From: Gemmatimonadota bacterium
Lineage (GTDB): Bacteria; Gemmatimonadota; Gemmatimonadetes; Gemmatimonadales; Gemmatimonadaceae
Assembly: GCA_038059315.1 (NCBI GenBank)
Contig: JBBTJT010000058.1
Location: forward strand, 1-57,253
DNA length: 57,253 nucleotides
Reading direction: 5' to 3'
The notes beneath the pieces were generated by a model, which saw only the letters and a list, made by a program, of their open reading frames with translations, did not search any database and was not told the origin of the DNA. Of this stretch, positions 6,337-24,182 are shown in pieces. How positions within the stretch are numbered: position 1 is the first letter of the stretch; every line of letters begins with the position of its first letter. The translations under genes were made by a program, and so were the position numbers.

Positions 6337-7299
6337 ATGACAGATAGCACGCGTCGAGGTAGTGGAAGTCGCATGGCGGGGCCAGCGTTCTGGCTCGCGT
6401 GTAGTGTGCTTGCCGGAGCCGTGGCGTTCGCCCCGGCGGGAGCGCAGCAAAACAAGCCGGCGCCGAAGGCTGCAGTTGCGGGGGACGCCGGGACGTATAT
6501 CGGCGAAGAGACATGCCTTGGCTGCCACGAGAACAAGAAGGGGAGCAGGAGCCTGCATGCGAAGGTCGCCGACTCGCGGTCACCATCCGGCGGCAAGGGC
6601 TGTGAGAGCTGCCACGGCCCCGGCAGCAAGCACGCGGACGATCCGGAGAAGGTGAAGCCGATGCAGTTCGGCAAGGTCAGCGCCGTCGAGGCGTCGGCCG
6701 CCTGCACGACGTGCCACTCCACGAGCGGGCACGCCTTCTGGGCGAACAGCAAGCACGAAGCCCGCAACGTCTCCTGCACGTCGTGCCACAGCGTCCACTC
6801 ATCCAAGGGCGCGGTGCTGATGAAGGAGGCCACGCAGACCAAGCTCTGCGCCTCGTGCCACCAGGCGATCGTCAACAAGCTCAACCGCTTCAACCATATG
6901 CCGGTGCGCGAAGACAAGATGGCCTGCTCGGGGTGCCACAACGTGCACGGCTCGGCCAACGTGAAAATGCTCAGGGCCGGCACAAACGTCGACCAGAGCT
7001 GCACGAGCTGCCACACCGAGAAGCGTGGTCCCTTCCTGTGGGAGCACGCCCCGGTGGCCAACGCCTGCGTCACCTGCCACGACCCGCACGGGTCGAGCAA
7101 TGACCGCATGCTCGTCGCCAAGCAGCCGTATGTCTGCCAGCGCTGCCACGTCACCTCGCGGCACCCACCGACGGTCTACGACGGCTTCGTTCGAACCACC
7201 TCACAGAGCGCGAACAAGATCACGGGCCGCTCCTGCTTGAACTGCCACCAGCAGATTCACGGGTCCAATTCACCCAATGGCCGGGCGTTCCTACGCTAA
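6337..7299 (+). CDS. mtrA: Periplasmic decaheme c-type cytochrome, MtrA/DmsE/PioA/MtoA family (320 aa)
   Basis: Ten CXXCH motifs (CLGCH, CESCH, CTTCH, CTSCH, CASCH, CSGCH, CTSCH, CVTCH, CQRCH, CLNCH). Signal peptide ending APAGAQQ. Colinear with recalled Shewanella MtrA blocks CTSCHTEKRGPFLWEHAPV..CVTCHDPHGSSND.ML and C-terminal GRSCLNCHQQIHGSNSPNG. AGGAGAG Shine-Dalgarno 5 nt before the ATG. Confidence 0.9.
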   Translation: MTDSTRRGSGSRMAGPAFWLACSVLAGAVAFAPAGAQQNKPAPKAAVAGDAGTYIGEETCLGCHENKKGSRSLHAKVADSRSPSGGKGCESCHGPGSKHADDPEKVKPMQFGKVSAVEASAACTTCHSTSGHAFWANSKHEARNVSCTSCHSVHSSKGAVLMKEATQTKLCASCHQAIVNKLNRFNHMPVREDKMACSGCHNVHGSANVKMLRAGTNVDQSCTSCHTEKRGPFLWEHAPVANACVTCHDPHGSSNDRMLVAKQPYVCQRCHVTSRHPPTVYDGFVRTTSQSANKITGRSCLNCHQQIHGSNSPNGRAFLR

Positions 7300-7316
7300 G
7301 GGAGAGAGAGACTGCG

Positions 7317-9677
7317 ATGCGCAATAAATACATGATCTCGGCCGCGCTCCTGTTGCTCGCCTCCGCCAGCGTGGCGGATGCGCAGCAGACGGCCGCGGCG
7401 CCGGCAAAGGCTCCGGCATTGGAACAGAGATGGGAGCTCGGCTTCCGTGGCACGACGACGACCGGCGACGAGGCCCGCTATGAGCGGTACCGGGACCTCC
7501 AGAGCGGGCTCGCCAGCAAGATCTGGCTTGGCAAGGAAACCGACGCGGTGGCGTATGACTTCAGCGCCGCCAACGTCGGCTACAACGACCAGGCATATGC
7601 CTTCAACTACAACAAGTTCGGGAAGATGAAGTTCACGGCGGAGTTCACCGGCCAGCCGCTGAACTACGCCTACAACACGCTGACACCCTTCACGTACGCC
7701 GGGAACAACAAGTGGACGCTCGATGCGGCCACCCGCACCCGCGTGCAGAACAAGGAAGCCGGCGTCGTCGGCATTGCGAACAGCGCCGCGACGGCCCTGA
7801 CGGGGTCGATCTACCGCGGCCTCGCCACCAACTTCCCGATGTCGGCGCAGCGCGATGCGTTCTCGGCCGGCATGCAGTACCGCGTGACCGAGATGGCCGC
7901 GGTCGACGTCGCGTTCAAGACGACGAAGAAGAGCGGCAACCAGCCGTGGGGCGCTTCCTTCGCGTTCAGCGACGCCAATGAAGTCCCGATGGCGCTCGAC
8001 AACCGGACCACGGAGTTCACAGCCGGCGTCGAGGTGAACAAGCCGCAATACGGCATGCTGCGCGCCGAGTATCAGGGGTCGTTCTTCACGAACAACTTCC
8101 TGTCGATGGAGTGGGACAACCCGCTCCGCGCCACGGACTACACGAACGGCAAGCCGGCCACGTCCACGAGGAGCGGTCCGTGGGACAACAGCGGCTACAG
8201 CAACGCCAACGGCCCGGCGTTCGGCCGCATAGCGATGGCGCCGAGCAACCAGATGAACACGTTCCGCGTCTACGGCCTCTACAAGATGCCGGGGCACACG
8301 ACGCTGAACGGCCACCTGTCGTTCACCAAGATGTCGCAGGACGAGGACATCATTCCATTCACCACCAACACGGTGATCGCGAACTCGGCGGTGTACGCCA
8401 TCTTCCCTGGCCTGGCGGCGCTGCCGCGCCCCACGGCGAACGCCACCGTCAACGGCCTGAACGCGGTGATCAACTTCGCCACGCGGCCCACTGACTACTT
8501 CGCGTTCGACATGAAGTACCGGTTCGACGACCACGACAACGTGACCCCGACCTGGGACTACACGTACAACGTCCGGTTCGACGCGGTGCCGGAATACACG
8601 CCGGGGTTGGCTTCCCACGGCCTGGACATCCGCCAGAACACCATGGAAGCCGGGGCGACGTTCACGCTGCCCCACCGGGGCACGGCGCTCAAGGTCGGCT
8701 ACATCATGGATGACGTGAAGCGCGGTGGGCGGGCGTTCAGCGACATGACGGACTACACGTTCCGCGCCTCGCTCGATGCCTACCAGAACCAGTACTTCAA
8801 CCTCCGTGGCATCGTCGAGAGCACGCGCCGCATCGGCAGCGGGTTCTCCCTCGAATATCTCGAAGAGGGCGGCGGTCAGAACGCCCTGCGCTTCTATGAC
8901 GAAGCCGACATGGATCGTCTCAAGAGCACGCTCATCCTGACGCTCACGCCGTCGAGCAAGCTCGACGTCAACCTGTCGCTCAACACGATCGACGACGAGT
9001 ACACGGGCGAGGGGCACGAGTTCGGCCTGCTCAGCAGCAAGAACACGTCGGTGAACCTGTCAGCGAACTTCTACGCCAATGACAAGGTCACCTTCGGCGC
9101 CATGTACGGGCTGGACAAGTATTCGTCCAACCAGGCCTCGCGCAACGCCAGTCCGCCGACCACGACGCCCGGTGCGTACGACAGCTGGAGTGACCCGAAC
9201 CGCAACTGGTACCTCGACAACGACGAGGACGTGAAGAGCGCCGGCGTCTGGGTGGACCTGCTCCAGGCCCTGCCCGACACCGACATCCGCTTCGCGTTCA
9301 ACTACAGCGATTCGGACAACGGGTTCGACATGTTCGGCCCGCGCATCAACCAGTTCCTGGCGCCCGACAACGTGGCGCTGCGGACGACGGGCGACAGCCG
9401 GGCGTGCTCGACGGGCATCACCGTCTGCTACATCCCGCAGCCCAACGTGACCAACACGTGGTCGCAGCTGAAGGTCAGCCTGAGGCACATGTTCCGCCCG
9501 ACGATGGGCGTGGGCCTGGGCTATCAGTATGAGAAGCTCGAGATCGTCGATTTCGCGACGACGGACCTCGCTCCCGGCGTGCCGCGCATGGACCCGCTCG
9601 GCGTGATCTCCACGGGCTACGGCAACCGCCCGTACACGGGCGGCACGTTCATTGCCCGGTTGATCTACATGTTCTAG
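7317..9677 (+). CDS. mtrB: MtrB/PioB/MtoB-family outer-membrane beta-barrel porin partner of the decaheme cytochrome (786 aa)
   Basis: Starts 17 nt after mtrA, with a GGGAGAGAGAG Shine-Dalgarno. Signal peptide MRNKYMISAALLLLASASVADAQQ. Tyr/Asn/Gly/Phe-rich alternating composition and C-terminal ...ARLIYMF (aromatic OMP terminus). Size and gene order match the MtrB/PioB family. Confidence 0.8.
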   Translation: MRNKYMISAALLLLASASVADAQQTAAAPAKAPALEQRWELGFRGTTTTGDEARYERYRDLQSGLASKIWLGKETDAVAYDFSAANVGYNDQAYAFNYNKFGKMKFTAEFTGQPLNYAYNTLTPFTYAGNNKWTLDAATRTRVQNKEAGVVGIANSAATALTGSIYRGLATNFPMSAQRDAFSAGMQYRVTEMAAVDVAFKTTKKSGNQPWGASFAFSDANEVPMALDNRTTEFTAGVEVNKPQYGMLRAEYQGSFFTNNFLSMEWDNPLRATDYTNGKPATSTRSGPWDNSGYSNANGPAFGRIAMAPSNQMNTFRVYGLYKMPGHTTLNGHLSFTKMSQDEDIIPFTTNTVIANSAVYAIFPGLAALPRPTANATVNGLNAVINFATRPTDYFAFDMKYRFDDHDNVTPTWDYTYNVRFDAVPEYTPGLASHGLDIRQNTMEAGATFTLPHRGTALKVGYIMDDVKRGGRAFSDMTDYTFRASLDAYQNQYFNLRGIVESTRRIGSGFSLEYLEEGGGQNALRFYDEADMDRLKSTLILTLTPSSKLDVNLSLNTIDDEYTGEGHEFGLLSSKNTSVNLSANFYANDKVTFGAMYGLDKYSSNQASRNASPPTTTPGAYDSWSDPNRNWYLDNDEDVKSAGVWVDLLQALPDTDIRFAFNYSDSDNGFDMFGPRINQFLAPDNVALRTTGDSRACSTGITVCYIPQPNVTNTWSQLKVSLRHMFRPTMGVGLGYQYEKLEIVDFATTDLAPGVPRMDPLGVISTGYGNRPYTGGTFIARLIYMF

Positions 9678-12261: not shown

Positions 12262-12265
12262 TCAG

Positions 12266-12994: not shown

Positions 12995-13344
12995 GGCGCG
13001 ACCGGGAGCCCGGCGGAGCGCGCCTCGTCGTCGGGAACGTCGAGCACCATGCGCAACAATGCGGTGGAGTAGACCTTTCCCTGCGCGTCGGTCTTGAGGG
13101 ACAGCGTGCCTCCGCCGTCGAGCGCGCCGTGGAGCAGGAAATTCAGCGCGCCGAGGTTGGGAAGCTCGAAGCGATCGACGGCGCCGTCAATGAGGCCCTC
13201 GAAGTGCGCGGCGACGCGGTCGCGCGTGAGGTGCCGCACGAGCACGGGATACCAGCCGGGTGCGAGCGCGATGACGCCGACGTTGGCGGTGTCGCCCTTG
13301 TCGCCCGACCGGGCGTGCGCAATGTCGAGGAGGCGTACGCGCAT
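12991..13344 (-). CDS. Small AtuA-associated protein (DUF4387-like, 117 aa)
   Basis: ORF 12991..13677 trimmed to the ATG at 13344, which shares 1 nt with the upstream stop (TGATG). [26 protein letters not shown] matches the conserved SGDKG motif I recall for the partner of DUF1446/AtuA proteins. Confidence 0.7.
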   Translation of the reverse strand: MRVRLLDIAHARSGDKGDTANVGVIALAPGWYPVLVRHLTRDRVAAHFEGLIDGAVDRFELPNLGALNFLLHGALDGGGTLSLKTDAQGKVYSTALLRMVLDVPDDEARSAGLPVAP

Positions 13345-14705
13345 CAGCGAATCTCCACCTGGGTCTGCACCACGGACTTGTCGACCAGCGCCGGCCAGAA
13401 CGCCACGATCTCCTCGACCTTTGGACGCCCGCCGGCGAAGCCCGTCACGCTGGGCGGGCCGTTGAGCACCAGCGGGACGATCTCGCGCGTGAACCGCTCC
13501 ACCTTCCGGCGATCGGCGTCGCGCACGCCGATGCGGAATTGCACCTCGGGCGCGGTCGCACCGGCGTCGCCGGAGAGCCGGCCGTGCGTCGCCGACGCGC
13601 CAACGAACTCGCTGAGCACCTTCTCGAACCTCAGCCCCATGCGGTCGAGTCGTTCGCGCAGCACGCGATCGGCGCACTCCGCCTTTTCCAGCGCGTCCGG
13701 CCAGGCGTAGACCAGCGAGCCGACCGCCTTGTACCCCGACTTGTACGCGATGGAGACCTTGAGCTTGTCGGTGGCCGGCGCGCCGGTGATTCCATGGACG
13801 CGCACGCGGTCGGGACCGGCGTCCTCGAGCCGGATCGACGTGAAGTCGGCGACGACGTCGGGCGTGATGTAGGCATGCGGATCACCCATCTCGTAGACGA
13901 GCTGCTCGGTGACCGTGGCGACGCTGACGCGCCCGCCGGTACCCGGGTGCTTGGTGACCACGAAGGTGCCGTCGGCGGAGCCCTCGACGATCGGGTACCC
14001 GACGTCGGCGAGGTTCGGGATGCTGCGCCAGTTGTGCAGGCAGTTGCCGCCCGAGCACTGCGCGCCGCACTCGATGATGTGCCCGGCGATGATGCCGGCG
14101 GCAAGCTTGTCCCACTCGGCGGCGCCCCAGCCGAATTCGTGGCGCAACGGCGCCATGGTGAGCGCGGTGTCGGTGGAGCGTCCGGTGATCACGACGTTGG
14201 CGCCCCTGGCCAGCGCCTCGACGATGGGCGTCGAGCCGATGTAGGCGTTGGCGGCAATGACGCGATCGCGCACCATGGACAAGGGCTCGCCCGTGTCCAT
14301 GTTCCTCAACTCGTGGCCGGCAGCGAGCAGCTCGTCGAGACGTGGCAGGAGGTTGTCGCCGGTGACGATGCCGATGCGCAGCGAACCCTTGCGCCCAGCA
14401 CCCGCCGCCATGGACTGCACCGCGGCCGCGCAGGCCTCGGGATTCACGCCGCCGGCGTTGGCGATGATCTTCACGCCCCGCTCGGCGACGGCGGCGAGGA
14501 CACTCTCCATGGCGCCCACGAAGTCGCGGGCGTACCCCATGGCCGGGTCGCGCTCCTTCTGCTTCTGCAGAATGGACATCGTGACTTCGGCAAGGTAGTC
14601 GAGCATCAGGTAGTCCACCGGGCCGCCGTCGACCTGGCGGCGGGGCGCTTCGAGCCAGTCGCCCCAGAAGCCCTGCCCGCCGGCCACGCGTACCGTCCGG
14701 GTCAT
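13344..14705 (-). CDS. Acyclic terpene utilisation AtuA-family protein (DUF1446, 453 aa)
   Basis: ORF trimmed to the ATG at 14705 (ATGA overlap with the carboxyltransferase stop). [42 protein letters not shown] is the characteristic AtuA N-terminus. Confidence 0.8.
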
Positions 14706-16318
14706 GCCTGGTCTCCGAGCCGGCTGGGCAGCACGAACGGCCCGAGGTGCGGGCCGGGATTCTGCCACGCCGCGCGCAAGGCGATGCCCAGCACCGTGCG
14801 CGTGTCCTCGGGATAGACGATCGTGTCGAGATAGCCTCGGGCGGCCGCGTAGCGCGCATCGAGCTGGTGCTCATAGTCGGCGCGCAACGCCTCCATGGCC
14901 TCCTGCGTCTCGTCGGACGGCGCAACGCCCGCCTTGCGCGCCATTTCGAGAGACGTGCCGTGCACGGCCTGCACGGCCGACTGCCCTTCCATGACAGCCA
15001 TGCGTCCCGTCGGCCAGGAGAAGATGAAGTCGGGATCGAAACCCTGCCCGGCCATGGCATAGTAGCCGGCCCCCGATGCGTGATTCAGGGTCAGCACGAT
15101 CTTGGGAACGCTCGCCGTGGCCATGGCCTCGACGAAGCGCGCGCCGGCGCGAATGATGCCGGAATGCTCCGCCTCCCGGCCAACCATGAAGCCGGAGACA
15201 TCCTGCACGAAGAGCAGCGGGATGCCCTGCCGGTCGCAGCGGTCGATGAAGAACGCCACCTTTTCCGCGCTCTCCGTATAGATGATCCCGCCAAAGCGCG
15301 CCGGTTGTCCGGCGGGCCCCTTGAGCAGGGCGCGCAGGTTGGCGATGACACCCACGGGGGTTCCCTCGATGCGCGCGTCGCCGCAGATCATCTCCCGGGC
15401 GAGGTTCGGCTGGAACTCGTCGAGCACGCCATCATCGAGGATGGTGCGAAGGACGGCGCGCATGTCGTACGGCATGCGATGGTCGTTGGGCAGCAACTCG
15501 TACAGCGCCGACGGATCGACGCCCGGCGTCGCGTCGGCGTCGAACGGCGCGATGCGCACCGGTGGCGCGAGGCGCCCCACGAGGTCGCGAATCTTCAGCA
15601 GGCAGGCGTCGTCGTCGTCCACGGCGTAGTGCGCCACCGCCGAGATCTCGGTGTGGGTGGTGGCGCCGCCGAGCGTCTCGCTGTCGATCACGGCGCCGGT
15701 GGCCCCCTGCACGAGGTTGGGCCCGCCCAGCCCCATGAACGACGTGCCCTTGACCATCAGGATCACGTCGCTGAGCGCCGGCAGGTACGCGCCGCCGGCG
15801 ATGCAGGGCCCCATGACGGCGGCGATCTGCGGAATGCGCAGGTATCGCCGCATGAGCGAGTTGTAGTAGAAGATGCGCGCCGCGCCGTACTGCCCCGGAA
15901 AGACGCCGCCCTGGTACGGCAGGTTGACGCCTGCGGAATCGACGAGGTAGATGATCGGCAGCCGGCACCGCATGGCGCATTCCTGCGCGCGCAGGATCTT
16001 GGGAATGGTCTCCGGCCACCAGGAGCCGGCCTTGACCGTGGCATCGTTGGCCACCACCACGCACGGACGACAGTCGATGTGCACCAGGCCGGTGACGACG
16101 CCGGCCGCCGGCGCCTCGCCATTGTACCTGTCGTGGGCGACGAGCAGGCCGAACTCGAGGAAATGGGAGTCGGCGTCCTTGAGGCGGGCGATGCGTTCGC
16201 GCGCGGTCAGTTTGCCCTGTTGATGCTGGCGCTCGATCTTGTCGGGGCCGCCGCCGAGGCGAAGGCGCTGCTCGAGCTCGCGCGATTCCGCGCTGAGCTC
16301 AGCGAGGCGGGTCGTCAC
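14702..16318 (-). CDS. Acyl-CoA carboxylase carboxyltransferase (beta) subunit, methylcrotonyl-/geranyl-CoA carboxylase type (538 aa)
   Basis: The track ORF 14702..16768 is a fusion artefact. The real start is GTG at 16318 (GTGA overlap with the B12-subunit stop). [54 protein letters not shown] and [18 protein letters not shown] are carboxyltransferase hallmarks. Confidence 0.88.
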
Positions 16319-16728
16319 GCGTCCTGCGCCTGCTTGGCGGCGTACCAGTCGCGGATGTACTCGATGAGGTCGGTCGTCGGCGTACCAGGCCCGAAGAGCC
16401 TGCCGAGGCCGAGTTCCTCGAGCCGGGTCATGTCTTCCCTGGGAATGATGCCGCCGCCGGTGATCAGGATGTCGTCGCGCCCCTGGGCGGTGAGCAACTC
16501 CCGCACGCGCGGAAAGAGCGTCATGTGGGCGCCGGACAGGATGGAGAGTCCGACGACGTCGACGTCCTCCTGCACTGCCGCACTGGCGATCATTTCGGGC
16601 GTCTGGTGCAGGCCCGTGTAGATGACTTCCATGCCGGCATCGCGGAGGGCGGCGGCGACGACCTTGGCGCCGCGGTCGTGGCCGTCGAGGCCGGGCTTGG
16701 CAACGAGAACTCGAATCGGGCGTTGCAT
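16315..16728 (-). CDS. Cobalamin-binding small subunit of a methylmalonyl-CoA-mutase-family enzyme (137 aa)
   Basis: ORF trimmed to the ATG at 16728 ([37 protein letters not shown]). Contains the DxHxxG B12-binding motif (DGHDRG) and later GGGIIP. Confidence 0.88.
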
Positions 16729-16779
16729 GGGTACCCCAAATAAGCGGTTCGGGCCCCTGAATTGACACCCCCTAGTGAA

Positions 16780-16819
16780 GTGGTGGATTCCCTTGCCGGG
16801 GACGGCGATTTGCCACCAC
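16780..16819. promoter_or_regulatory. Nested stem-loop in the 325-bp divergent intergenic region (possible 5' leader element of the minus-strand operon)
   Basis: GTGGTGG attccctt GCCG ggga CGGC gatttg CCACCAC: a 7-bp outer stem enclosing a 4-bp inner hairpin, 52-91 nt upstream of the ATG at 16728. Function unknown. Confidence 0.3.
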
Positions 16820-17053
16820 AACAGTTGAGGGAAACTGCCCACTTACAAGTGCTGGGCGGACGCTATCATCCGACAACCGACCATGTATAGGGCAAAACCT
16901 TTCGTGTCGCTTCGCAGTTCGGCCGACTGCTCGCTCACGACCTCGGGAAGTTGACGCGTTCCCCGATGACCCTGCGCGGCACCAGCGCCGAGTGCAGCCG
17001 CTCCAGTTCCGTAGTCGCTTTCCCCCAACCTCCCAGGTTCAAGGAGAAGTCAG

Positions 17054-17377
17054 ATGCGCGCACTTCTGCTGATCGGCATTCTTGCCGCCGCCGTTTCCTC
17101 CAGCGCCGCCGCACAGGCTCCCGACGGCAAGGAAGTTTACGACCGTCTCTGCAAGAAGTGCCATGGCGCCACGGGCGTGCCGTCGAAGGTGATGAAGACG
17201 AAGTTCGAGAAGATCGCCGCGTTCGATGCCGCGTTCGTGGCGAAACGCCCCGTCGACGAGATGGTGAAGGTCCTCGTCAAGGGCAAGGGCGAGGGCATGA
17301 AGTCGTTCAGCGAGAAGATGAAGCCCGACGAGATGACCGCAGTCGCCAAGTACGTGCATGAACTCGCCAAGCCGTAG
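17054..17377 (+). CDS. Monoheme class I c-type cytochrome, periplasmic (107 aa)
   Basis: AAGGAGAAG Shine-Dalgarno. Signal peptide MRALLLIGILAAAVSSSAAAQA. A single CKKCH heme site and Met-rich distal region (GEGMKSFSEKM). Confidence 0.85.
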   Translation: MRALLLIGILAAAVSSSAAAQAPDGKEVYDRLCKKCHGATGVPSKVMKTKFEKIAAFDAAFVAKRPVDEMVKVLVKGKGEGMKSFSEKMKPDEMTAVAKYVHELAKP

Positions 17378-17419
17378 ATCACGGCCTTCGGAGGCGCCAC
17401 GCAGGACTCGAGTACGGGC

Positions 17420-17470
17420 GGCGGCGATGGAGCCCGGGCAGGCTGCATCGCCGCCGTGCCGCACCGGCAC
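17420..17470 (+). terminator. Two adjacent GC-rich hairpins after the monoheme cytochrome gene (terminator or processing site)
   Basis: GGCGGCGATG(G)AGCC cgggca GGCT(G)CATCGCCGCC (17420-17455), followed by GTGCCG cac CGGCAC (17456-17470). No U-tract. Confidence 0.35.
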
Positions 17471-17535
17471 GATCTCCGCGCTTCGATAGCGCTCGTGGTT
17501 CCACCGGGCGGAGACTCCCCTGACGAGGGCAGTTC

Positions 17536-18054
17536 ATGCAGCACGCGCGACACTTCATACGTCTGCTCGCCCTGATCGCGCTGGCCGTCACCGGGTTCCT
17601 CGGCGTACGCGCGCAGGCGGTCCCTAAGGACTTTGGCACGCTCGGACACTTCCGGGCGTCGGCCATCCCCGAGATCGCGGCCCGCGAGCCGCGCCACCTG
17701 GGGAGCGAGGCCTGCGGCGACTGCCACGACGCGGAGTTTGCGGCGTGGAAGTCCGGCAAGCACTCCGTGCCCCAGTGCGAAGCGTGCCACGGCCCGGGCC
17801 TTCTGCACGTGAAGATGATGAGCGAGGACTCGGTGGACGCCTACCCCGACCGCATAAAGCAGAATCCCAACGCATTGCGGGTGATGAGCGGCATCCTGGA
17901 ATGCAAATGGTGCCACCTCAAGACGTTCGAACGGCCGAGCGCCCTCAAGTCCATCACCAACGTGCAGAAGCACGTCGTCAGCAAGGGGGGACAGTTCACG
18001 CCCCAGTCGAGGTGCATCGACTGTCACAATCCGCACACGGCGGTGGTCAAGTGA
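17536..18054 (+). CDS. Tetraheme c-type cytochrome with N-terminal membrane anchor or signal (172 aa)
   Basis: Four CXXCH motifs (CGDCH, CEACH, CKWCH, CIDCH). N-terminal hydrophobic helix FIRLLALIALAVTGFLGV. The motif CGDCH..W..S.H....CEACHGPG..H is typical of multiheme (MtrA/NrfB-like) cytochromes. Confidence 0.85.
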   Translation: MQHARHFIRLLALIALAVTGFLGVRAQAVPKDFGTLGHFRASAIPEIAAREPRHLGSEACGDCHDAEFAAWKSGKHSVPQCEACHGPGLLHVKMMSEDSVDAYPDRIKQNPNALRVMSGILECKWCHLKTFERPSALKSITNVQKHVVSKGGQFTPQSRCIDCHNPHTAVVK

Positions 18055-18866
18055 CGAGCCCCTGGAACAAGCCGGAGATCTCGAGGCGGGAGTTCTTCGA
18101 GAAGTGCGCGGAGACGGGGGCCCAGACTTTCGTTTTCGGCGGCCTCTTCCTGACGACCGCGAAGCTGAGGCTGCCGCGGGAATCCGCCCACGGGTCCGGC
18201 GGCGGCGCCGACCCGGACCAGGCGATCTACGGCTTCGTGGTGGACACCACGGCGTGCATCGGGTGCGGCTCGTGCGTGCGGGCGTGCAAGGCGGAGAACA
18301 ACGTGCCCGACGGGTTCAACCGCACCTGGGTGGAGCAGTACACGTTCTTCCCGAACGGCGAGGTCATCGTGAACTCGCCGCAGGGCGGAGAGAACGGGTT
18401 CCCTGACGACCTGCCGGAACGCAACCTGCCCATTGAACTCAAGCTGCTGCCGGTGCGCGGCTTCTTCGTGCCCAAGCTGTGCAATCATTGCATCGACACG
18501 CCGTGCATCCAGGTCTGCCCCGTCGGTGCATCGTTCGTGACGAAGGAAGGCGTGGTGCTGATCGACGACGAGCGCTGCGTCGGCTGCGGCTACTGCGTGC
18601 AGGCCTGCCCGTTCGGCTCGCGCTTCCTCAACCCCGAGACCAAGTGCGCGGACAAGTGCACGTGGTGCTACCACCGGATCACCAAGGGGTTGATGCCGGC
18701 GTGCGTCCAGGCCTGCCCGGCCAAGGCCCGCATTTTCGGCAACGTCAGCGACCCGCTCAGTGGAATCAGCCGGATCCTCGCCGGCAATCGCGTGCAGGTG
18801 CTGAAGTCGTACCTCGGCACGCGTCCGCGCACCCGCTACATCGGCCTCGACTCCGAGGTCATCTAG
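18051..18866 (+). CDS. Tat-exported 4Fe-4S ferredoxin-type subunit, NrfC/PsrB/DsrO family (271 aa)
   Basis: GTG start at 18051 (GTGA overlap with the tetraheme stop). Twin-arginine motif ISRREFFEK. Four Cys clusters: CIGCGSCVRAC, CNHCIDTPCIQVCP, CVGCGYCVQACP and CTWC...ACVQACP. Confidence 0.88.
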   Translation: MTSPWNKPEISRREFFEKCAETGAQTFVFGGLFLTTAKLRLPRESAHGSGGGADPDQAIYGFVVDTTACIGCGSCVRACKAENNVPDGFNRTWVEQYTFFPNGEVIVNSPQGGENGFPDDLPERNLPIELKLLPVRGFFVPKLCNHCIDTPCIQVCPVGASFVTKEGVVLIDDERCVGCGYCVQACPFGSRFLNPETKCADKCTWCYHRITKGLMPACVQACPAKARIFGNVSDPLSGISRILAGNRVQVLKSYLGTRPRTRYIGLDSEVI

Positions 18867-18867
18867 C

Positions 18868-20106
18868 ATGAATCACTTCGTCACCGAAGGGTACGTCCTG
18901 CCGAACCAGATGCACATCTACTGGACGACGATGATCGTGCTGTATCCGTACATCACCGGCATCGTCGCCGGCGCGTTCATCATCTCGTCGCTGCACCACG
19001 TGTTCGACAAGCACGAACTCGAGCCGGTCAGCCGGTTCTCGATGATCATGGCGTTCGCCTTCCTGCTGTTCGCCACCATGCCGCTCATGGCGCACCTGGG
19101 GCACCCGGAGCGGGCCTTCAACATGATGTTCACCCCCAACGTCACGTCGGCGATGGCGGGATTCGGCTTCATCTACACCGCCTATCTCCTCATCCTGGCG
19201 GTGGAGATCTGGCTGCTGTATCGCGTGGACATCGTGTACCTGTCCCTGAACGCGAAGTCCCCGGCGATGCGGAGCCTGTACTGGCTGATGGCGCTCGGCG
19301 TGCAGGACATCACGCCGGAAGCCAAGGCGCTCGACCGCAAGGTCATGATCTTCCTGGCGTCGATCGGCATCCCGGCGGCGTGCGGGCTGCACGGGTACGT
19401 GGGCTTCATCTTCGGCGCCATCAAGGCCAACCCGTGGTGGGCCAGCCCGCTGATGCCCGTCATCTTCCTGCTCAGCGCCATCGTGTCCGGCATCGCGATG
19501 GTCCTGGTGTGCTACATCGCCGTGCAGTGGATGATGAAGCGCCCCATCGACGGGCCGTGCGCCCAGTCGCTCATCGAGTCGGCGTGGTACTTCCTCATCA
19601 TCGACGTCACGCTCGAATTGCTGGAGCTGCTGAACCGCGCCTACATGGCCAACGAGGACTGGGTGATCCTGAAAACGCTCGTCACCACCAAGCTGTTCAC
19701 CAGCTTCTTCGTCATCCAGATCGTGCTCGGTTCGATTCTCCCATTCCTGCTGCTCGGCTCCGTCGTGGTGTTCAAGGACCGGATGCCCGCGCGGGCGCGC
19801 GACGCCATCGGCTTCACGGGGGGGCTCCTGCTGCTGGTGCAGGTGGCGGCCATGCGCTGGAACGTGGTGATGGGCGGGCAGATGTTCTCGAAGAGCCTCC
19901 GGGGTTTCCTGACCTTCGACGTCGAGATCTACGGGCGGGAGGGACTGCTCGTGGCCGGGCTCATGCTTTCGCTGCCGTTCATCACGATGCTGGTCATCTC
20001 GCGGATACTGCCGCTGTGGGGCGGCATCGAGACGTTCCCGAAGAAGTGGATGAAGGAGGTGGAGCCGCCGCGCCGGCCGTTGAAGGGCTACTCGAAGTTT
20101 GGATGA
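18868..20106 (+). CDS. NrfD/PsrC/DsrP-like polytopic membrane quinone-interacting subunit (412 aa)
   Basis: The ATG lies 1 nt after the FeS-subunit stop. About nine hydrophobic segments by eye. N-terminal YWTTMIVLYPYITGIVAGAFIISSL resembles the first NrfD helix. Confidence 0.85.
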   Translation: MNHFVTEGYVLPNQMHIYWTTMIVLYPYITGIVAGAFIISSLHHVFDKHELEPVSRFSMIMAFAFLLFATMPLMAHLGHPERAFNMMFTPNVTSAMAGFGFIYTAYLLILAVEIWLLYRVDIVYLSLNAKSPAMRSLYWLMALGVQDITPEAKALDRKVMIFLASIGIPAACGLHGYVGFIFGAIKANPWWASPLMPVIFLLSAIVSGIAMVLVCYIAVQWMMKRPIDGPCAQSLIESAWYFLIIDVTLELLELLNRAYMANEDWVILKTLVTTKLFTSFFVIQIVLGSILPFLLLGSVVVFKDRMPARARDAIGFTGGLLLLVQVAAMRWNVVMGGQMFSKSLRGFLTFDVEIYGREGLLVAGLMLSLPFITMLVISRILPLWGGIETFPKKWMKEVEPPRRPLKGYSKFG

Positions 20107-20141: not shown

Positions 20142-20936
20142 ATGGACAGCACCAACTTGATGTATTTCGCCGCCGCCGTGGTCGTCATCGCGATGCTCAG
20201 GCTCGGCGTGAAGATCGTGAGGCAGTACGAGGGCGGCGTGGTCCTGCGGTTCGGCCGGCTGGTCGGCGTCCGGGGGCCCGGGCTGAACTTCATCATCCCG
20301 CTCGTCGACCGGATGTACAAGATCGACGTGCGCGTCGTGACCTACATCGTCGAGCCGCAGGAGCTGATCACGCGCGACAACGTGACGATCAAGGTGGACG
20401 CGGTGGTGTACTTCGCCGTCATGGATTGCGCCAAGGCGCTGCTGCAGGTTGAGGACTACAAGAAGGCCACCTCGCAGATCGCCCTGACGACGCTGCGGAG
20501 CGTGCTCGGCCAGTCGGAACTCGACGAACTGCTGGCCCAGCGCGACAAGATCAACACGAAGCTGGCGCACATCATCGACGAGCATACCGCGCCGTGGGGC
20601 GTGAAGGTCTCGGTGGTCGAAGTGAAGGACGTCCTGCTCCCCGAGGCCATGCAGCGCTCGATGGCGGCGCAGGCCGAGGCCGAACGCGAGAAGCGGGCGA
20701 AGATCATCCGCGCCGATGGCGAGTTCCTCGCGGCGGCAACGCTCGGCAAGGCGGCCCGGATCATCCGCAACGAACCGCCGGCACTGCAGCTCCGGTACCT
20801 GCAGACGCTGGTGGAAATGGCCGGGTCGGGCAACAGCACCGTCATTCCGATCCCGATGGACCTGTTCGATGGACTGAAGGGCGTGCTGGCCAGGAACGGC
20901 GGCGATGCACCGGCCCTCGAGGCCGGAAGCGCGTAG
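20142..20936 (+). CDS. SPFH/band-7 (stomatin/slipin-like) membrane protein (264 aa)
   Basis: N-terminal TM then VRQYEGGVVLRFGRLVGVRGPGLNFIIPLVDRMYKIDVRV...TRDNVTIKVDAVVYF...WGVKVSVVEVKDV..P..M..AMAAQAEAEREKRAKI, classic stomatin-family blocks. Confidence 0.9.
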   Translation: MDSTNLMYFAAAVVVIAMLRLGVKIVRQYEGGVVLRFGRLVGVRGPGLNFIIPLVDRMYKIDVRVVTYIVEPQELITRDNVTIKVDAVVYFAVMDCAKALLQVEDYKKATSQIALTTLRSVLGQSELDELLAQRDKINTKLAHIIDEHTAPWGVKVSVVEVKDVLLPEAMQRSMAAQAEAEREKRAKIIRADGEFLAAATLGKAARIIRNEPPALQLRYLQTLVEMAGSGNSTVIPIPMDLFDGLKGVLARNGGDAPALEAGSA

Positions 20937-21052
20937 CGGCGCCGCGCGCCGACGCCGTTGATGGACGCCCGGAGGATGGCACGCCGCTGACCAGGCAGGC
21001 AGGTTGGCGGGGTGATGATCGTGCTCGCCACCGACCTGAGGAGACCGTTCCG

Positions 21053-21481
21053 ATGCGACGACTGACCTTCCTTGCCGCCCTGCTTGCGTCCGCCTGCGGC
21101 GGCCGCGCCCCGGCACCTGCGCCGATCGAGGTGCGCGCTCCCTGGGCGCGCCCGGCCGACTCGGCGGCGGTGACGGCGGCGTACCTGACCCTCTTCAACC
21201 ACGAGGCGCTGGCCGTGACGCTCTCCTCCGCGTCGTCTCCGCTGGCTGAGTCGGTGACGCTGCACGAGACGATGCAGATGAGCGGGATGGTGCACATGAT
21301 GCCGCTCGACTCCGGGCAGGTCATCGCGCCGGGAGACTCGCTGGTCCTGGCGGAGGGCGCAAAGCACTTAATGGTGATGGGGCTCAAGCGCACACTGACC
21401 GGCGGCGATTCGCTGCCGCTGGAACTCCGCTTCAGCGACGGGCGCGTGCTGCACGCCACTGCTGCCGTGCGCGCACCGTAG
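21053..21481 (+). CDS. Periplasmic copper chaperone PCu(A)C (DUF461) lipoprotein (142 aa)
   Basis: ORF trimmed to the ATG at 21053 with a GAGGAG Shine-Dalgarno. Lipobox LLASAC. Motifs AAYLTLFN and Met-rich copper site HETMQMSGMVHMMP plus GAKHLMVMGLK. Confidence 0.8.
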   Translation: MRRLTFLAALLASACGGRAPAPAPIEVRAPWARPADSAAVTAAYLTLFNHEALAVTLSSASSPLAESVTLHETMQMSGMVHMMPLDSGQVIAPGDSLVLAEGAKHLMVMGLKRTLTGGDSLPLELRFSDGRVLHATAAVRAP

Positions 21482-21649: not shown

Positions 21650-22429
21650 TCAGCCGTCCTTTCGCGCCACCAGCAGCATCTCGCTCGAACGCCGGTTCAG
21701 GGGACGGTCGCTGAAACTGTCAAACGCTTGTTCCACGATCAATCCGGCGTCGCGCATGAGGTCGGAGAGCTGCGTGGGAGTGTAGAGCCGGATCTTGTGC
21801 GTGCGATCTTCGTGAACGTCGCGGCCCCGCCAGCGCGACTCGACCGTCAGGAAGCCGGAGAGCGGGTCGAAGCTCCGTTCCTGGGCAACCAGCGTGCCGT
21901 CGCCGGTGGTCCACCAGTCGCGGGGGAGGAACTTGGCCATCACGCCGTCGCGATCGCCCCCGTGCCAGAGCAGGAGACCTCCGGGCTTCAGCACGCGGGC
22001 GAACTCCCGGAGCACGCGGGCATCGTCGCGCGGATCGGCGAAGAAGCCGAAACTGGTGAAGAGGTTGACCACGGCGTCGAAGCGTCCCGTCCACGCCACC
22101 GGGAGGTGGCGCATGTCGGTGCGCCGATAGCGCAGCGTGCGTCCGGTCCCGCGCAACCGAGCCTTGTCCAACAAGGGTCCCGAGAAGTCCACGCCGTCAA
22201 CGTCGAGTCCGGCTTCGGAGAGGAGGTGCGCGTGCCGTCCCTGGCCGCACGCGCAATCCAGCACGCGCGCGCCGACCGGAAGGGCGAGCACCTCGAGCAG
22301 TCGCGCCACCTGGCGGCGATCCTCCACGAGCTCGAAGAACGGCTCGTACTCGCGCAGGTACCCGGTGTCGAAGTAGGTGCGCCACCAATTGGCGTCGGTG
22401 GTCGGTGGTCGGGGGTGGGTGGTCGTCAT
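21650..22429 (-). CDS. Class I SAM-dependent methyltransferase (259 aa)
   Basis: ORF trimmed to the ATG at 22429. SAM motif I VLDCACGQGRH. Downstream DAVVNLFTSFGFF and LKPGGLLL. The first 12 codons are made of the 7-nt repeat array. Confidence 0.8.
   Translation of the reverse strand: MTTTHPRPPTTDANWWRTYFDTGYLREYEPFFELVEDRRQVARLLEVLALPVGARVLDCACGQGRHAHLLSEAGLDVDGVDFSGPLLDKARLRGTGRTLRYRRTDMRHLPVAWTGRFDAVVNLFTSFGFFADPRDDARVLREFARVLKPGGLLLWHGGDRDGVMAKFLPRDWWTTGDGTLVAQERSFDPLSGFLTVESRWRGRDVHEDRTHKIRLYTPTQLSDLMRDAGLIVEQAFDSFSDRPLNRRSSEMLLVARKDG
22394..22428. repeat. 5 tandem 7-nt units (GTCGGTG-like) overlapping the first codons of the methyltransferase
   Basis: GTCGGTG GTCGGTG GTCGGGG GTGGGTG GTCGTCA read on the plus strand. 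On the coding strand this encodes MTTTHPRPPTTD. Confidence 0.8.
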
Positions 22430-22453
22430 CGCCGCCAGGTGATCAGGTTCGGC

Positions 22454-22483
22454 CTCTGTCGTTCTCTGTCGTTCTCTGTCGTA
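22454..22483. repeat. 3 tandem copies of a 10-nt unit CTCTGTCGTT in the gap between the mutase stop and the methyltransferase start
   Basis: CTCTGTCGTT CTCTGTCGTT CTCTGTCGTA, followed by a partial CTCTC. Read directly. Confidence 0.85.
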
Positions 22484-22487
22484 CTCT

Positions 22488-24178
<1,691 letters not shown>

Positions 24179-24182
<4 letters not shown>

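What the first reader, a model, noticed from the sequence alone, without database searches (positions are those of the whole stretch)
17054..20106. Catalytic-subunit-less cytochrome / FeS / NrfD membrane module with its own monoheme shuttle
Four consecutive plus-strand genes make up the cluster:
- a soluble monoheme cytochrome c (CKKCH);
- a tetraheme cytochrome with an N-terminal hydrophobic anchor (CGDCH, CEACH, CKWCH, CIDCH);
- a Tat-signal (SRREFF) protein with four FeS-cluster Cys motifs;
- a 412-aa NrfD-like polytopic protein with about nine hydrophobic segments.

The last three are joined by a GTGA overlap and a 1-nt gap. No molybdopterin or other catalytic subunit is present.

The FeS + NrfD core with a multiheme partner is the architecture of quinone-pool modules such as DsrJOP, Tmc/Hmc/Qrc, NrfBCD, alternative complex III and the Geobacter Cbc-type complexes. 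It matches none of these in subunit count. A tetraheme + NrfC + long NrfD set with a dedicated monoheme gene is a poorly characterised variant.
Basis: partly seen in the sequence, partly recalled or inferred. Interest (0 to 1): 0.65.

Follow-up and report, generated by a model that had tools for sequence, protein, structure and literature searches.

The report
Cbc4-type quinol–cytochrome c module, Gemmatimonadota
The four genes are real and encode a membrane complex that links the quinone pool to periplasmic cytochromes without a catalytic subunit; it is a distant relative of the little-studied Cbc4 (CbcSTU) complex of Geobacter, and in this bacterial lineage it sits with genes for an outer-membrane electron conduit.

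Summary
All four genes, their motifs, the GTGA overlap and the 1-nt gap are as described.

The claim that the set matches no known complex in subunit count is wrong. Tetrahaem + FeS + NrfD, in that order, is the composition of Geobacter sulfurreducens Cbc4 (CbcS/T/U, GSU0068-70). I fetched that locus. The window proteins are 28 % (S), 44 % (T) and 40 % (U, full length) identical to it, against 25 % over half the length for E. coli NrfD. No solved structure matches the NrfD-like protein by sequence.

No molybdopterin subunit lies next to the cassette in the window or in 14 related loci.

In the nine Gemmatimonadota-type loci:
- a class-I monohaem cytochrome c lies within 10 kb in 9/9;
- an SPFH/Band-7 gene follows the NrfD gene in 8/9;
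- an MtrA/MtrB-type decahaem-porin pair lies within 10 kb in 6/9, in the window at 6337-9677;
- a Rieske/cytochrome b complex is present in 4/9.

Best reading: a Cbc4-type menaquinol:cytochrome c oxidoreductase. The monohaem protein is a periplasmic hub shared with an extracellular electron-transfer conduit. The direction of electron flow is unresolved.

Verdict: new variant of a known, poorly characterised kind; moderate interest.

The parts
17054..17377 (+). Class-I monohaem cytochrome c (hydrophobic N-terminal signal-like segment, CKKCH, candidate Met ligand in GEGMKSF): periplasmic electron carrier
   Evidence: Pfam Cytochrome_CBB3 / Cytochrom_C. Nearest solved relatives are c552 and c6 proteins. 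The same family, 43-63 % identical, lies within 10 kb of the cassette in 8 other loci. A 100 %-identical metatranscriptome contig covers 16946-17339.
17420..17455 (+). GC-rich stem-loop (GGCGGCGAUG...CAUCGCCGCC) in the 158-nt spacer before the tetrahaem gene
   Evidence: Predicted fold. It is homologous to the stem-loop that follows mtrB in the syntenic loci L008 and L021. Function not tested.
17536..18054 (+). CbcS-like membrane-anchored tetrahaem cytochrome c
   Evidence: Four CXXCH motifs and one N-terminal helix. 28 % identical to G. sulfurreducens CbcS at E 1e-12. The DFG motif, all four haem motifs and distal His76, His91 and His167 are invariant against 29 CbcS-type proteins.
18051..18866 (+). 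CbcT-like Tat-exported protein with four Cys groups for FeS clusters
   Evidence: SRREFF motif and four Cys groups. Pfam Fer4_11. 44 % identical over 273 aa to G. sulfurreducens CbcT. All NCBIfam equivalogs are below cut-off.
18868..20106 (+). CbcU-like NrfD-family quinone-reactive membrane subunit (8-helix core plus 1 C-terminal helix)
   Evidence: Pfam NrfD. 40 % identical over 419 aa to G. sulfurreducens CbcU. The model's best fold match is ActC, TM 0.71-0.75. His76 and Ser94 align with the NrfD quinone-site residues His74 and Ser92.
20142..20936 (+). SPFH/Band-7 (stomatin/HflK-like) membrane protein, 35 nt after the NrfD gene: probable accessory or scaffold gene of the operon
   Evidence: Pfam Band_7 at E 2.6e-41. 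It lies directly downstream of the NrfD gene in 8 of 9 Gemmatimonadota-type loci. It is absent in the Geobacter locus and the 'delta-type' loci.
21011..21481 (+). PCu(A)C copper chaperone
   Evidence: Pfam PCuAC at E 4e-30. Kept in the two syntenic loci L008 and L021 only.
6337..7299 (+). MtrA/DmsE-family decahaem cytochrome c, 7.4 kb upstream
   Evidence: Ten CXXCH motifs. TIGR03508 scores 251 bits against a cut-off of 192. It is a divergent paralogue (38-41 %) of the MtrA that lies next to the monohaem gene in the relatives.
7317..9677 (+). MtrB/PioB-family outer-membrane porin
   Evidence: Pfam MtrB_PioB at E 3.7e-81. TIGR03509 scores 206 bits, below its cut-off of 240. A 100 %-identical metatranscriptome contig covers 7409-8001.

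Best explanation
The cluster encodes a Cbc4-type (CbcSTU-like) three-subunit oxidoreductase between the menaquinone pool and periplasmic cytochromes, plus a class-I monohaem cytochrome c that carries the electrons onward.

Shown:
- The three core proteins are homologous, in the same gene order, to G. sulfurreducens CbcS, CbcT and CbcU.
- The membrane subunit keeps the His and Ser of the NrfD-family quinone site.
- No catalytic subunit accompanies the cassette in any locus examined.
- In this Gemmatimonadota lineage the cassette is repeatedly linked to one monohaem cytochrome family, an SPFH protein, an MtrA/MtrB-type decahaem-porin pair and a Rieske/cytochrome b complex.

Inferred:
- All cofactors face the periplasm, from the Tat signal on the FeS protein, the N-terminal anchor on the tetrahaem protein and the hydrophobic signal-like N-terminus of the monohaem protein.
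- Menaquinol is oxidised at a periplasm-side site in the NrfD-like subunit.
- Electrons pass through the four FeS clusters and the four low-potential bis-His haems to the soluble monohaem cytochrome.
- That cytochrome serves as a hub between the inner-membrane quinol oxidoreductases (this complex and the bc complex), a terminal oxidase, and the outer-membrane MtrAB-type conduit.
- I favour the quinol-to-cytochrome direction because it is the downhill one. The module is probably reversible.
For: Homology to genuine G. sulfurreducens cbcSTU:
- Locus L020 encodes a CbcS identical to AAR33403.1 and holds all three published primer sequences exactly.
- U is 40 % identical over 419 aa (E 4e-85), T 44 % over 273 aa, S 28 % over 169 aa.
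- E. coli NrfD gives 25 % over 205 aa. NrfB gives nothing significant.
- The NCBIfam score profile of CbcU and CbcT matches that of the window proteins.
- UniRef names the G. metallireducens orthologue 'Menaquinol oxidoreductase complex Cbc4, cytochrome c subunit'.

Biochemistry of the relative:
- CbcS has four bis-His haems with Eapp -139 mV and reduces periplasmic PpcA in vitro (bioRxiv 10.1101/2025.04.14.648717).
- The haem motifs and three distal His are invariant between the window protein and 29 CbcS-type proteins.

Quinone site and fold:
- His76 and Ser94 align with NrfD His74 and Ser92, the residues named in PMC8076601.
- The best fold match is ActC.

Gene neighbourhoods:
- monohaem 9/9, Band-7 8/9, MtrAB 6/9, Rieske/cytochrome b 4/9, molybdopterin 0/9.
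- In L008 and L021, which are syntenic with the window, mtrA-mtrB sit exactly between the monohaem and tetrahaem genes.

Literature: FeS + NrfD modules are known to work without a catalytic subunit, donating to soluble periplasmic proteins (PMC6303296).
Against: - No biochemistry exists for any member beyond the soluble domain of CbcS.
- The Geobacter cbcS knock-out has no Fe(III) or Mn(IV) phenotype, so the physiological role of the family is unknown.
- The tetrahaem subunit is only 24-28 % identical to CbcS, and the fourth distal His lies in a segment with an indel.
- The window's own MtrAB pair is a divergent paralogue (38-41 % and 23-25 %) of the pair linked to the monohaem gene in the relatives, and it is 7.4 kb away. 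Its coupling to this cassette is weaker than in L008 and L021.
- A high-potential His/Met monohaem carrier and an MtrAB pair without MtrC are more typical of Fe(II)-oxidising (inward) pathways than of outward electron flow.
- I built no full NrfD-family phylogeny with DsrP, ActC, QrcD and PsrC references.
Confidence: 0.6

Rival explanations
1. Same complex working in reverse. It would be a cytochrome c:menaquinone reductase at the inner-membrane end of an electron-uptake (Fe(II)- or Mn(II)-oxidising) pathway. Extracellular donor, then the MtrAB-type conduit, then the monohaem cytochrome c. From there electrons go either downhill to a copper oxidase or, driven by the proton motive force, uphill through this complex or the bc complex into the menaquinone pool.
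For: - The MtrA/MtrB pairs have no MtrC-type outer cytochrome: the only CXXCH-rich ORFs in the window are MtrA, the tetrahaem and the monohaem genes.
- The periplasmic carrier is a class-I c552/c6-like monohaem protein. This parallels MtoD in the Sideroxydans mtoA-mtoB-mtoD-cymA cluster (PMC10654088).
- In L022, L023 and L025 the operon is Rieske-cytochrome b/c-monohaem-MtrA-MtrB.
- Models of iron oxidisers use bc1 or the NrfD-type ACIII for reverse flow (PMC5566968).
- Qrc shows that the module can reduce menaquinone electrogenically (PMC6303296).
- PCuAC and copper-related neighbours are present.
- The source is groundwater or aquifer.
Against: - The step from a roughly +200 mV cytochrome c to menaquinone is steeply uphill. 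That potential is my expectation for the class, not a measurement.
- There is no evidence of autotrophy or need for reverse flow in this organism.
- The only tested relative, CbcS, donates electrons outward to PpcA.
- Direction cannot be read from sequence (also stated for Gemmatimonadota in PMC11316326).
Confidence: 0.25
2. A plain aerobic bypass of the bc complex, analogous to alternative complex III. It would feed a cytochrome c oxidase through the monohaem protein. The MtrAB linkage would be incidental.
For: - ActC is the best fold match.
- PCuAC lies downstream.
- L001 and L010/L011 have the cassette, Band-7 and the monohaem gene with no MtrAB within the flanks.
- L009 places the cassette beside a Rieske/cytochrome b complex.
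Against: - MtrAB lies within 10 kb in 6 of 9 loci and in three different gene arrangements. That is hard to ascribe to chance.
- No terminal oxidase is encoded next to any of the loci.
Confidence: 0.15
3. A degraded Psr/Ttr/Nrf operon, or a DsrJOP-like fragment that has lost its catalytic or cytoplasmic partner.
For: - The best NCBIfam hits of the FeS protein are TtrB, NrfC and DsrO.
- In L002 a homologous cassette is followed by a DsrMK-like fusion, and a tungsten AFOR gene lies upstream.
Against: - All those NCBIfam scores are far below cut-off.
- No Pfam molybdopterin domain, NrfA or DsrMK is listed next to the cassette in any of the 9 Gemmatimonadota-type loci or in Geobacter.
- The cassette is highly conserved, with 63 % mean column identity across 30 NrfD-like proteins.
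- DsrJ is a trihaem protein and NrfB a soluble pentahaem protein. The window tetrahaem protein shows no significant similarity to NrfB.
Confidence: 0.03

Closest known systems
Geobacter sulfurreducens Cbc4 complex, CbcS/CbcT/CbcU (GSU0068-GSU0070)
   Same: - Three genes in the same order with overlapping or abutting ends.
- An anchored tetrahaem cytochrome of 160-172 aa, a Tat-exported FeS protein with four Cys groups, and an NrfD-family subunit of 412-417 aa with an extra C-terminal helix.
- No catalytic subunit.
- Pairwise identity 28 %, 44 % and 40 %.
   Different: - Different phylum and habitat. The window is assigned to Gemmatimonadota from the names of its closest hits and comes from groundwater.
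- Identity is only 24-44 %, so this is a separate clade. A third, 'delta-type' clade (L002, L003) is closer to the window, with U at 54 %.
- The Gemmatimonadota form has a 14-residue insertion between haems 2 and 3.
- It has a conserved SPFH gene and a linked monohaem cytochrome. Geobacter has neither at the locus, and its proposed partner is the trihaem PpcA family.
Alternative complex III (ActABCDEF)
   Same: - A quinol:cytochrome c oxidoreductase built on an FeS + NrfD-like module with c-type cytochromes and a monohaem subunit.
- ActC is the best structural match of the NrfD-like model (TM 0.71-0.75).
   Different: - There is no ActB-type fused molybdopterin-like domain, no pentahaem ActA, no second NrfD-like ActF and no ActD.
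- Sequence identity in the fold alignments is 16-19 %.
- Neither the protein nor a profile of it matches ActC by sequence.
NrfBCD of E. coli, and SirCD of Shewanella
   Same: - An FeS + NrfD menaquinol dehydrogenase donates to a periplasmic multihaem cytochrome.
- The quinone-site His and Ser are conserved.
- SirCD can replace CymA as a general quinol dehydrogenase (PMC11434368).
   Different: - NrfD has 8 helices and 318 aa, and is 25 % identical over the first half only.
- NrfB is a soluble pentahaem protein with no significant similarity.
- There is no NrfA nearby.
- TIGR03148 scores 51 bits against a cut-off of 348.
DsrMKJOP (DsrJOP part) and QrcABCD
   Same: A periplasmic multihaem cytochrome, an FeS protein and an NrfD-like subunit. 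Qrc shows that such modules can be electrogenic and can run towards the quinone (PMC6303296).
   Different: - There is no DsrMK and no QrcB here.
- DsrJ is a trihaem and QrcA a hexahaem protein.
- DsrO scores 167 against a cut-off of 200, DsrP 47 against 350, and QrcD 25 against 570.
Sideroxydans Mto pathway (MtoA, MtoB, MtoD, CymA/MtoC) and Shewanella Mtr pathway
   Same: At the level of the whole system: a decahaem protein and porin in the outer membrane, a small periplasmic cytochrome, and a tetrahaem-containing quinone-reactive component in the inner membrane, all encoded together (L008, L021).
   Different: - The inner-membrane component is a three-subunit FeS/NrfD complex, not the single NapC/NirT protein CymA or the haem b/c protein MtoC/CbcL.
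- The monohaem protein did not match MtoD in the PDB sequence search at E < 0.01.
- The window itself lacks the adjacent MtrAB pair and has only a divergent paralogue 7.4 kb away.

Membership tests
Cbc4 / CbcSTU-type complex | Three adjacent genes in the order cytochrome, FeS protein, membrane subunit, with no catalytic subunit | tested here: met
   Window 17536-20106 has a GTGA overlap and a 1-nt gap. G. sulfurreducens L020 has the same order, with cbcS and cbcT overlapping and a 2-nt gap before cbcU.
Cbc4 / CbcSTU-type complex | CbcS: a cytochrome of about 160 aa with an N-terminal membrane anchor, a linker, four CXXCH motifs and four bis-His haems | tested here: inconclusive
   Anchor, DFG motif, four CXXCH and distal His76, His91 and His167 are invariant against 29 CbcS-type proteins. 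The fourth distal His candidate (His146) lies in a segment with an indel relative to CbcS. Haem ligation cannot be shown from sequence, and the AlphaFold model was too poor to use (pLDDT 57).
Cbc4 / CbcSTU-type complex | CbcT: a periplasmic protein with four [4Fe-4S] clusters, homologous to GSU0069 | tested here: met
   Tat motif and four Cys groups. 44 % identical over 273 aa at E 3e-78 to L020 CbcT, against 41 % over 203 aa and a lower score for E. coli NrfC.
Cbc4 / CbcSTU-type complex | CbcU: an integral membrane subunit homologous to GSU0070 over its full length | tested here: met
   40 % identical over 419 aa at E 4e-85, including the extra C-terminal helix that E. coli NrfD lacks.
Cbc4 / CbcSTU-type complex | Monophyly with Geobacter CbcU against the other NrfD clades (DsrP, ActC/F, QrcD, HybB, PsrC, TtrC) | not tested
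   Only indirect evidence. All NCBIfam clade models score far below cut-off, with the same pattern for CbcU and the window protein. There is no PDB sequence match. Reference sequences for a tree were not available, except for E. coli NrfD.
Cbc4 / CbcSTU-type complex | Menaquinol:cytochrome c oxidoreductase activity | not testable with these tools
   This has not been demonstrated for the Geobacter complex either. Only the soluble CbcS domain has been studied.
NrfD/PsrC family of quinone-reactive subunits | Pfam NrfD domain, a two four-helix-bundle core, and the conserved protonatable residue at the end of helix 2 plus the Ser at the quinone-pocket entry | tested here: met
   PF03916 scores 130 bits against a cut-off of 25.8. 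The ActC fold matches. His76 and Ser94 align with NrfD His74 and Ser92, as listed in PMC8076601, and both are invariant in 30 homologues.
Alternative complex III | ActB with a molybdopterin-like domain fused to the FeS domain, pentahaem ActA, a second NrfD-like ActF, and ActD/ActE | tested here: not met
   The FeS protein has only 271 aa and Fer4 domains alone. The cytochrome has four haems. There is only one NrfD gene.
NrfABCD nitrite reductase system | NrfA and pentahaem NrfB beside NrfC/NrfD, with equivalog-level scores | tested here: not met
   TIGR03149 scores 167 against 378 and TIGR03148 scores 51 against 348. No NrfA is present. The tetrahaem protein shows no significant similarity to NrfB.
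DsrMKJOP | DsrM/DsrK genes, trihaem DsrJ, and DsrO/DsrP at equivalog score | tested here: not met
   DsrO scores 167 against 200 and DsrP 47 against 350. There is no DsrMK-like gene in the window. A DsrMK-like fusion follows the cassette only in the distant locus L002.
Mtr/Mto/Pio porin-cytochrome conduit (context genes 6337-9677) | An MtrA/DmsE-family decahaem cytochrome followed by an MtrB/PioB porin | tested here: met
   Ten CXXCH motifs. TIGR03508 scores 251 against 192. PF11854 scores 274 bits. TIGR03509 scores 206, just below its cut-off of 240.

The most novel reading that the evidence does not exclude
In groundwater Gemmatimonadota, a phylum known mainly as aerobic heterotrophs and phototrophs, several components may form a previously undescribed extracellular electron-exchange chain. 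The components are a Cbc4-type FeS/NrfD complex with its SPFH partner, a Rieske/cytochrome b complex, one class-I monohaem cytochrome c and an MtrAB-type conduit without MtrC. The Cbc4-type complex would be the gate between the periplasmic cytochrome pool and menaquinone, coupled to the proton motive force, for example for Fe(II) or Mn(II) oxidation. This would give the orphan Cbc4 family its first physiological role.
Probability: 0.25. Interest if true: 0.75.

Novelty: new variant of a known kind. Interest (0 to 1): 0.5.

Why it matters
Cbc4-type complexes are widespread. At 50 % clustering, 353 clusters of 1.84 billion representatives match the profile at E <= 1e-30. Yet no physiological role is known, because the Geobacter cbcS mutant has no phenotype.

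The Gemmatimonadota loci offer a concrete, testable context. The cassette is repeatedly encoded with a periplasmic monohaem cytochrome, an outer-membrane decahaem-porin conduit, a bc complex, cytochrome maturation genes and a sigma-54 two-component system.

If the link holds, it would identify the inner-membrane partner of MtrAB/MtoAB-type conduits outside the Proteobacteria. It would also extend iron or manganese redox cycling in aquifers to a phylum where it has been only loosely suggested.

The finding also corrects a likely annotation trap. These genes are routinely named 'polysulfide reductase NrfD' or 'HybB-like'.

Tried and rejected
1. Fetching G. sulfurreducens cbcSTU through published primer sequences.
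- The reverse-primer 24-mer found nothing in the metagenome contigs.
- A query masked with X apart from the primer-encoded peptides was rejected by the word index and cost one protein search.
- A degenerate RTKAYCxxCH pattern finally found a G. metallireducens-like cbcS contig (L014). That contig led to the true locus through.

2. Sequence searches of solved structures with the NrfD-like protein, alone and as a profile, gave nothing up to E = 10. Only the fold comparison was informative.

3. The AlphaFold model of the tetrahaem protein was poor (pLDDT 57), so I made no fold search and no claim about an NrfH/CymA-like haem core from my own data.

4. The cluster look-up for ten NrfD homologues returned no organism names.

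5. The promoter and terminator scan gave nothing above the shuffle expectation.

6. Readings considered and rejected: a degraded molybdoenzyme operon, NrfBCD, DsrJOP, Qrc and ACIII membership. See the membership tests.

Full report
**1. Observation**

The four plus-strand ORFs are present exactly as described.

| Coordinates | Length | Features | Best Pfam match |
|---|---|---|---|
| 17054-17377 | 107 aa | hydrophobic signal-like N-terminus, CKKCH | class-I cytochrome c, E 5.8e-10 |
| 17536-18054 | 172 aa | one N-terminal hydrophobic helix; CGDCH, CEACH, CKWCH, CIDCH | Cytochrome_C7 / c3_2 |
| 18051-18866 | 271 aa | GTG start inside GTGA; SRREFF Tat motif; four Cys groups | Fer4_11, E 6e-24 |
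| 18868-20106 | 412 aa | starts 1 nt after the previous stop | NrfD, E 1.8e-37 |

- The GTGA overlap is visible.
- Third-position GC is 0.85-0.95 in the three of these frames that my filter listed. The FeS frame is missing from that list because its enclosing ORF opens at an upstream GTG.
- The NrfD-like protein has more than 8000 database relatives, the closest at 93 % identity.
- Its AlphaFold model (pLDDT 81, pTM 0.83) has nine long helices.
- The loop charges and a C-terminal tail with 8 K/R give an N-out/C-in topology.
- An alignment with 8-helix E. coli NrfD shows that the ninth helix is a C-terminal addition.

**2. Origin**

- The closest named relatives are Gemmatimonadetes MAG proteins. 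The window has 65-72 % G+C.
- The same DNA is held by groundwater and aquifer metagenomes.
- One aquifer metatranscriptome holds 100 %-identical contigs over the monohaem gene and over mtrB. This is weak evidence of expression, because these are contigs and DNA carry-over is possible.

**3. What the core is**

No curated family claims the proteins.
- For the NrfD-like protein the best NCBIfam scores are NrfD 51 (cut-off 348), DsrP 47 (350), HybB 30, QrcD 25, HmcC 20 and TtrC 17.
- For the FeS protein they are TtrB 201 (cut-off 416), NrfC 167 (378) and DsrO 167 (200).
- No solved structure matches the NrfD-like protein by sequence, even with a 30-sequence profile at E = 10.
- By fold, the best matches are ActC of alternative complex III (TM 0.71-0.75, 16-19 % identity), then ActF.

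The literature gave the decisive lead. [quoted passage not shown] These are GSU0068-0070 (bioRxiv 10.1101/2025.04.14.648717).

I recovered the genuine locus as follows.
- A degenerate pattern from a primer-encoded peptide found a G. metallireducens-like cbcS contig.
- Its homologues include a cluster that contains AAR33403.1 of G. sulfurreducens PCA.
- The contig L020 encoding exactly that protein carries all three published primers at the expected codons.
- In L020, cbcS is followed by a 257-aa FeS protein and a 417-aa Pfam-NrfD protein.

| Window protein | vs G. sulfurreducens Cbc4 | vs E. coli Nrf |
|---|---|---|
| tetrahaem (S) | 28 % over 169 aa, E 1e-12 | NrfB: nothing significant |
| FeS (T) | 44 % over 273 aa, E 3e-78 | NrfC: 41 % over 203 aa, lower score |
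| NrfD-like (U) | 40 % over 419 aa, E 4e-85 | NrfD: 25 % over 205 aa |

- CbcU and CbcT give the same sub-threshold NCBIfam pattern as the window proteins.
- Against 29 CbcS-type proteins, the window tetrahaem keeps the cytoplasmic His6/Arg9, the DFG motif after the anchor, all four haem motifs and distal His76, His91 and His167.
- The fourth distal His candidate lies in an indel region.
- The statement that the cluster matches no known complex in subunit count is therefore wrong. It is a Cbc4-type cassette.
- It forms a clade of its own. A third, 'delta-type' clade (L002, L003; U 54 %, T 53-55 %, S 29-31 % to the window) is closer to it than Geobacter is. Geobacter CbcU is about 40 % identical to both.
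- The profile finds 353 clusters at 50 % identity with E <= 1e-30.

**4. No catalytic subunit**

- Across 14 related loci with precomputed Pfam tables, no molybdopterin domain, NrfA or other periplasmic catalytic subunit flanks the cassette. The loci are L001-L004, L008-L011, L019-L023 and L025.
- The only pterin enzyme seen is a cytoplasmic-type tungsten AFOR upstream in L002.
- None of the 37 window ORFs I scanned against Pfam carries such a domain. The ORFs at 11218-16842 and 21650-26226 were read from the Pfam tables of syntenic L008 and L021, not scanned themselves. Several smaller ORFs beyond 27 kb were not scanned.
- Stand-alone operation of FeS + NrfD modules that donate to soluble periplasmic proteins is an accepted mode (PMC6303296).

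**5. Quinone site**

PMC8076601 names two positions shared by the quinone-reactive NrfD-like subunits. One is a protonatable residue at the end of helix 2 (His74 in NrfD). The other is a Ser at the pocket entrance (Ser92 in NrfD). These align with His76 and Ser94 of the window protein and with His79 and Ser97 of CbcU. Both are invariant in 30 homologues.

**6. Surroundings**

- An SPFH/Band-7 gene (20142-20936) starts 35 nt after the NrfD gene.
- A PCu(A)C copper chaperone gene (21011-21481) follows.
- Upstream, at 6337-7299 and 7317-9677, the window encodes an MtrA/DmsE-family decahaem cytochrome (TIGR03508 251 bits, cut-off 192) and an MtrB/PioB porin (Pfam E 3.7e-81). No MtrC-like cytochrome is present.

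| Feature | Gemmatimonadota-type loci (of 9) |
|---|---|
| monohaem cytochrome within 10 kb | 9 |
| Band-7 directly after the NrfD gene | 8 |
| MtrA + MtrB within 10 kb | 6 |
| Rieske/cytochrome b complex | 4 |
| PCuAC | 3 |

- The nine loci are the window, L001, L008, L009, L010/11, L021, L022, L023 and L025. Their NrfD proteins are 68-76 % identical to the window protein.
- The monohaem proteins belong to one family, 43-63 % identical.
- L008 and L021 are syntenic with the window on both sides. They carry mtrA-mtrB exactly between the monohaem and tetrahaem genes.
- L022, L023 and L025 have cytochrome c maturation genes, a sensor kinase and a sigma-54 regulator, then the cassette and Band-7. 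A convergent operon reads Rieske-cytochrome b/c-monohaem-MtrA-MtrB.
- L009 has Rieske-cytochrome b/c-monohaem-cassette.

Two qualifications follow.
- First, the MtrAB pairs of the relatives are orthologous to one another (67-84 % and 47-70 %). The window's pair is a divergent paralogue (38-41 % and 23-25 %).
- Second, the window's 158-nt spacer carries a GC stem-loop homologous to the one that follows mtrB in L008 and L021. The window looks like the form without the mtrAB pair at this position. Whether that is a loss here or a gain in the relatives is not resolved.
- The monohaem gene is thus at least as tightly tied to MtrAB and to the bc complex as to the cassette.

**7. Mechanism**

The following steps are inferred. 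The Tat signal, the anchor and the hydrophobic signal-like N-terminus put every cofactor on the periplasmic side. The quinone site lies on the periplasmic side of the NrfD-like subunit. Electrons run menaquinol, then four FeS clusters, then four haems, then the monohaem cytochrome c.

CbcS haems are bis-His with Eapp -139 mV, and CbcS reduces PpcA in vitro.

From my own knowledge, not measured here: a His/Met class-I cytochrome is expected to sit well above that potential. The spontaneous direction is then quinol to cytochrome.

The gene context argues that the monohaem protein is a hub. It would connect this complex, the bc complex, a copper-dependent terminal oxidase (PCuAC) and the outer-membrane conduit.

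The reverse reading has real support. Electron uptake from Fe(II) through MtrAB, with entry into the menaquinone pool driven by the proton motive force, fits three observations: there is no MtrC, the carrier is of the high-potential type, and the bc complex shares an operon with it. It also parallels the Sideroxydans Mto cluster and the ACIII or bc1 models for iron oxidisers. Sequence cannot decide the direction.

**8. Comparison and novelty**

- It works like alternative complex III or NrfCD/SirCD-type quinol dehydrogenases.
- It fails the defining features of ACIII, NrfABCD, DsrMKJOP and Qrc.
- It meets the architectural and homology features of Cbc4/CbcSTU, at the level of a separate clade.
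- MtrCAB has been reported in single Gemmatimonadetes genomes and a few marine MAGs (PMC8805035, PMC11316326).
- In the papers I read, I did not find the Cbc4-type cassette described as a partner, nor its SPFH and monohaem associates.
- I rate it a new variant of a known, poorly characterised kind, with moderate interest.

Noticed in passing
window 6337-9677 (+): An MtrA/DmsE-family decahaem cytochrome and an MtrB/PioB porin with no MtrC-like gene. It is a divergent paralogue (38-41 % and 23-25 %) of the MtrAB pair that lies beside the monohaem gene in related loci. It is divergently oriented to an 880-aa U32-peptidase gene (3514-6156, minus strand).
   Followed up: partly
L008:1389-6172 and L021:4794-9173, against window 17054-18054: In two loci syntenic with the window on both sides, mtrA and mtrB sit between the monohaem and tetrahaem genes. 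The window has only a 158-nt spacer there. The spacer's GC stem-loop (17420-17455) is homologous to the stem-loop after mtrB in those loci. This points to either a loss of mtrAB in the window or a gain in the relatives.
   Followed up: partly
L022:12597-18259, L023:12262-18019, L025:15064-20866 (minus strand): An operon reading Rieske - cytochrome b fused to a c-type domain - monohaem c - MtrA - MtrB, convergent on the cassette + Band-7 unit. Cytochrome c maturation genes and a dCache sensor kinase with a sigma-54 response regulator lie directly upstream of the cassette. L022 also has a 926-aa multihaem protein with a faint Ni_hydr_CYTB hit, which may be CbcL/MtoC-like.
   Followed up: no
L002:6714-12013: A 'delta-type' cassette is followed by a 638-aa fusion of a NarI-like cytochrome b with FeS and CCG domains (DsrMK-like) and by a further multihaem cytochrome. 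This is a DsrMKJOP-like layout built around a tetrahaem cytochrome in place of the trihaem DsrJ. An AFOR gene with its ferredoxin lies just upstream.
   Followed up: no
P0376, P0383, P0418, P0278, P0280: Distant family members occur as single polypeptides with the NrfD domain first and the four-cluster FeS domain at the C-terminus. Two others are joined to an FAD-binding/FAD-oxidase domain or to NHL repeats. Whether these are true fusions or gene-calling read-through was not checked.
   Followed up: no
P0128 / L019:6001-6483: A CbcS variant at least 90 % identical to that of G. sulfurreducens reads REGCH where haem motif 2 should read CENCH. The first Cys is lost. This is either a single-Cys haem attachment or an assembly error.
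   Followed up: no
L009:8383-13525: Downstream of the cassette lie DUF5676, a P-type ATPase and a multicopper oxidase. L023 has a weak cupredoxin-like gene nearby. Together with PCuAC in the window, this makes a recurring copper theme.
   Followed up: no
Genome-contig collection against L020: An exact 21-mer that is present in the G. sulfurreducens cbcS locus was not returned by the scan of species-representative genomes. Absence from that collection should therefore not be read as absence from the species.
   Followed up: no
window 16946-17339, 7409-8001, 18664-19237: Contigs of an aquifer metatranscriptome cover the monohaem gene and mtrB at 100 % identity. They cover the FeS/NrfD junction with 28 differences, so that contig comes from a related strain.
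   Followed up: partly
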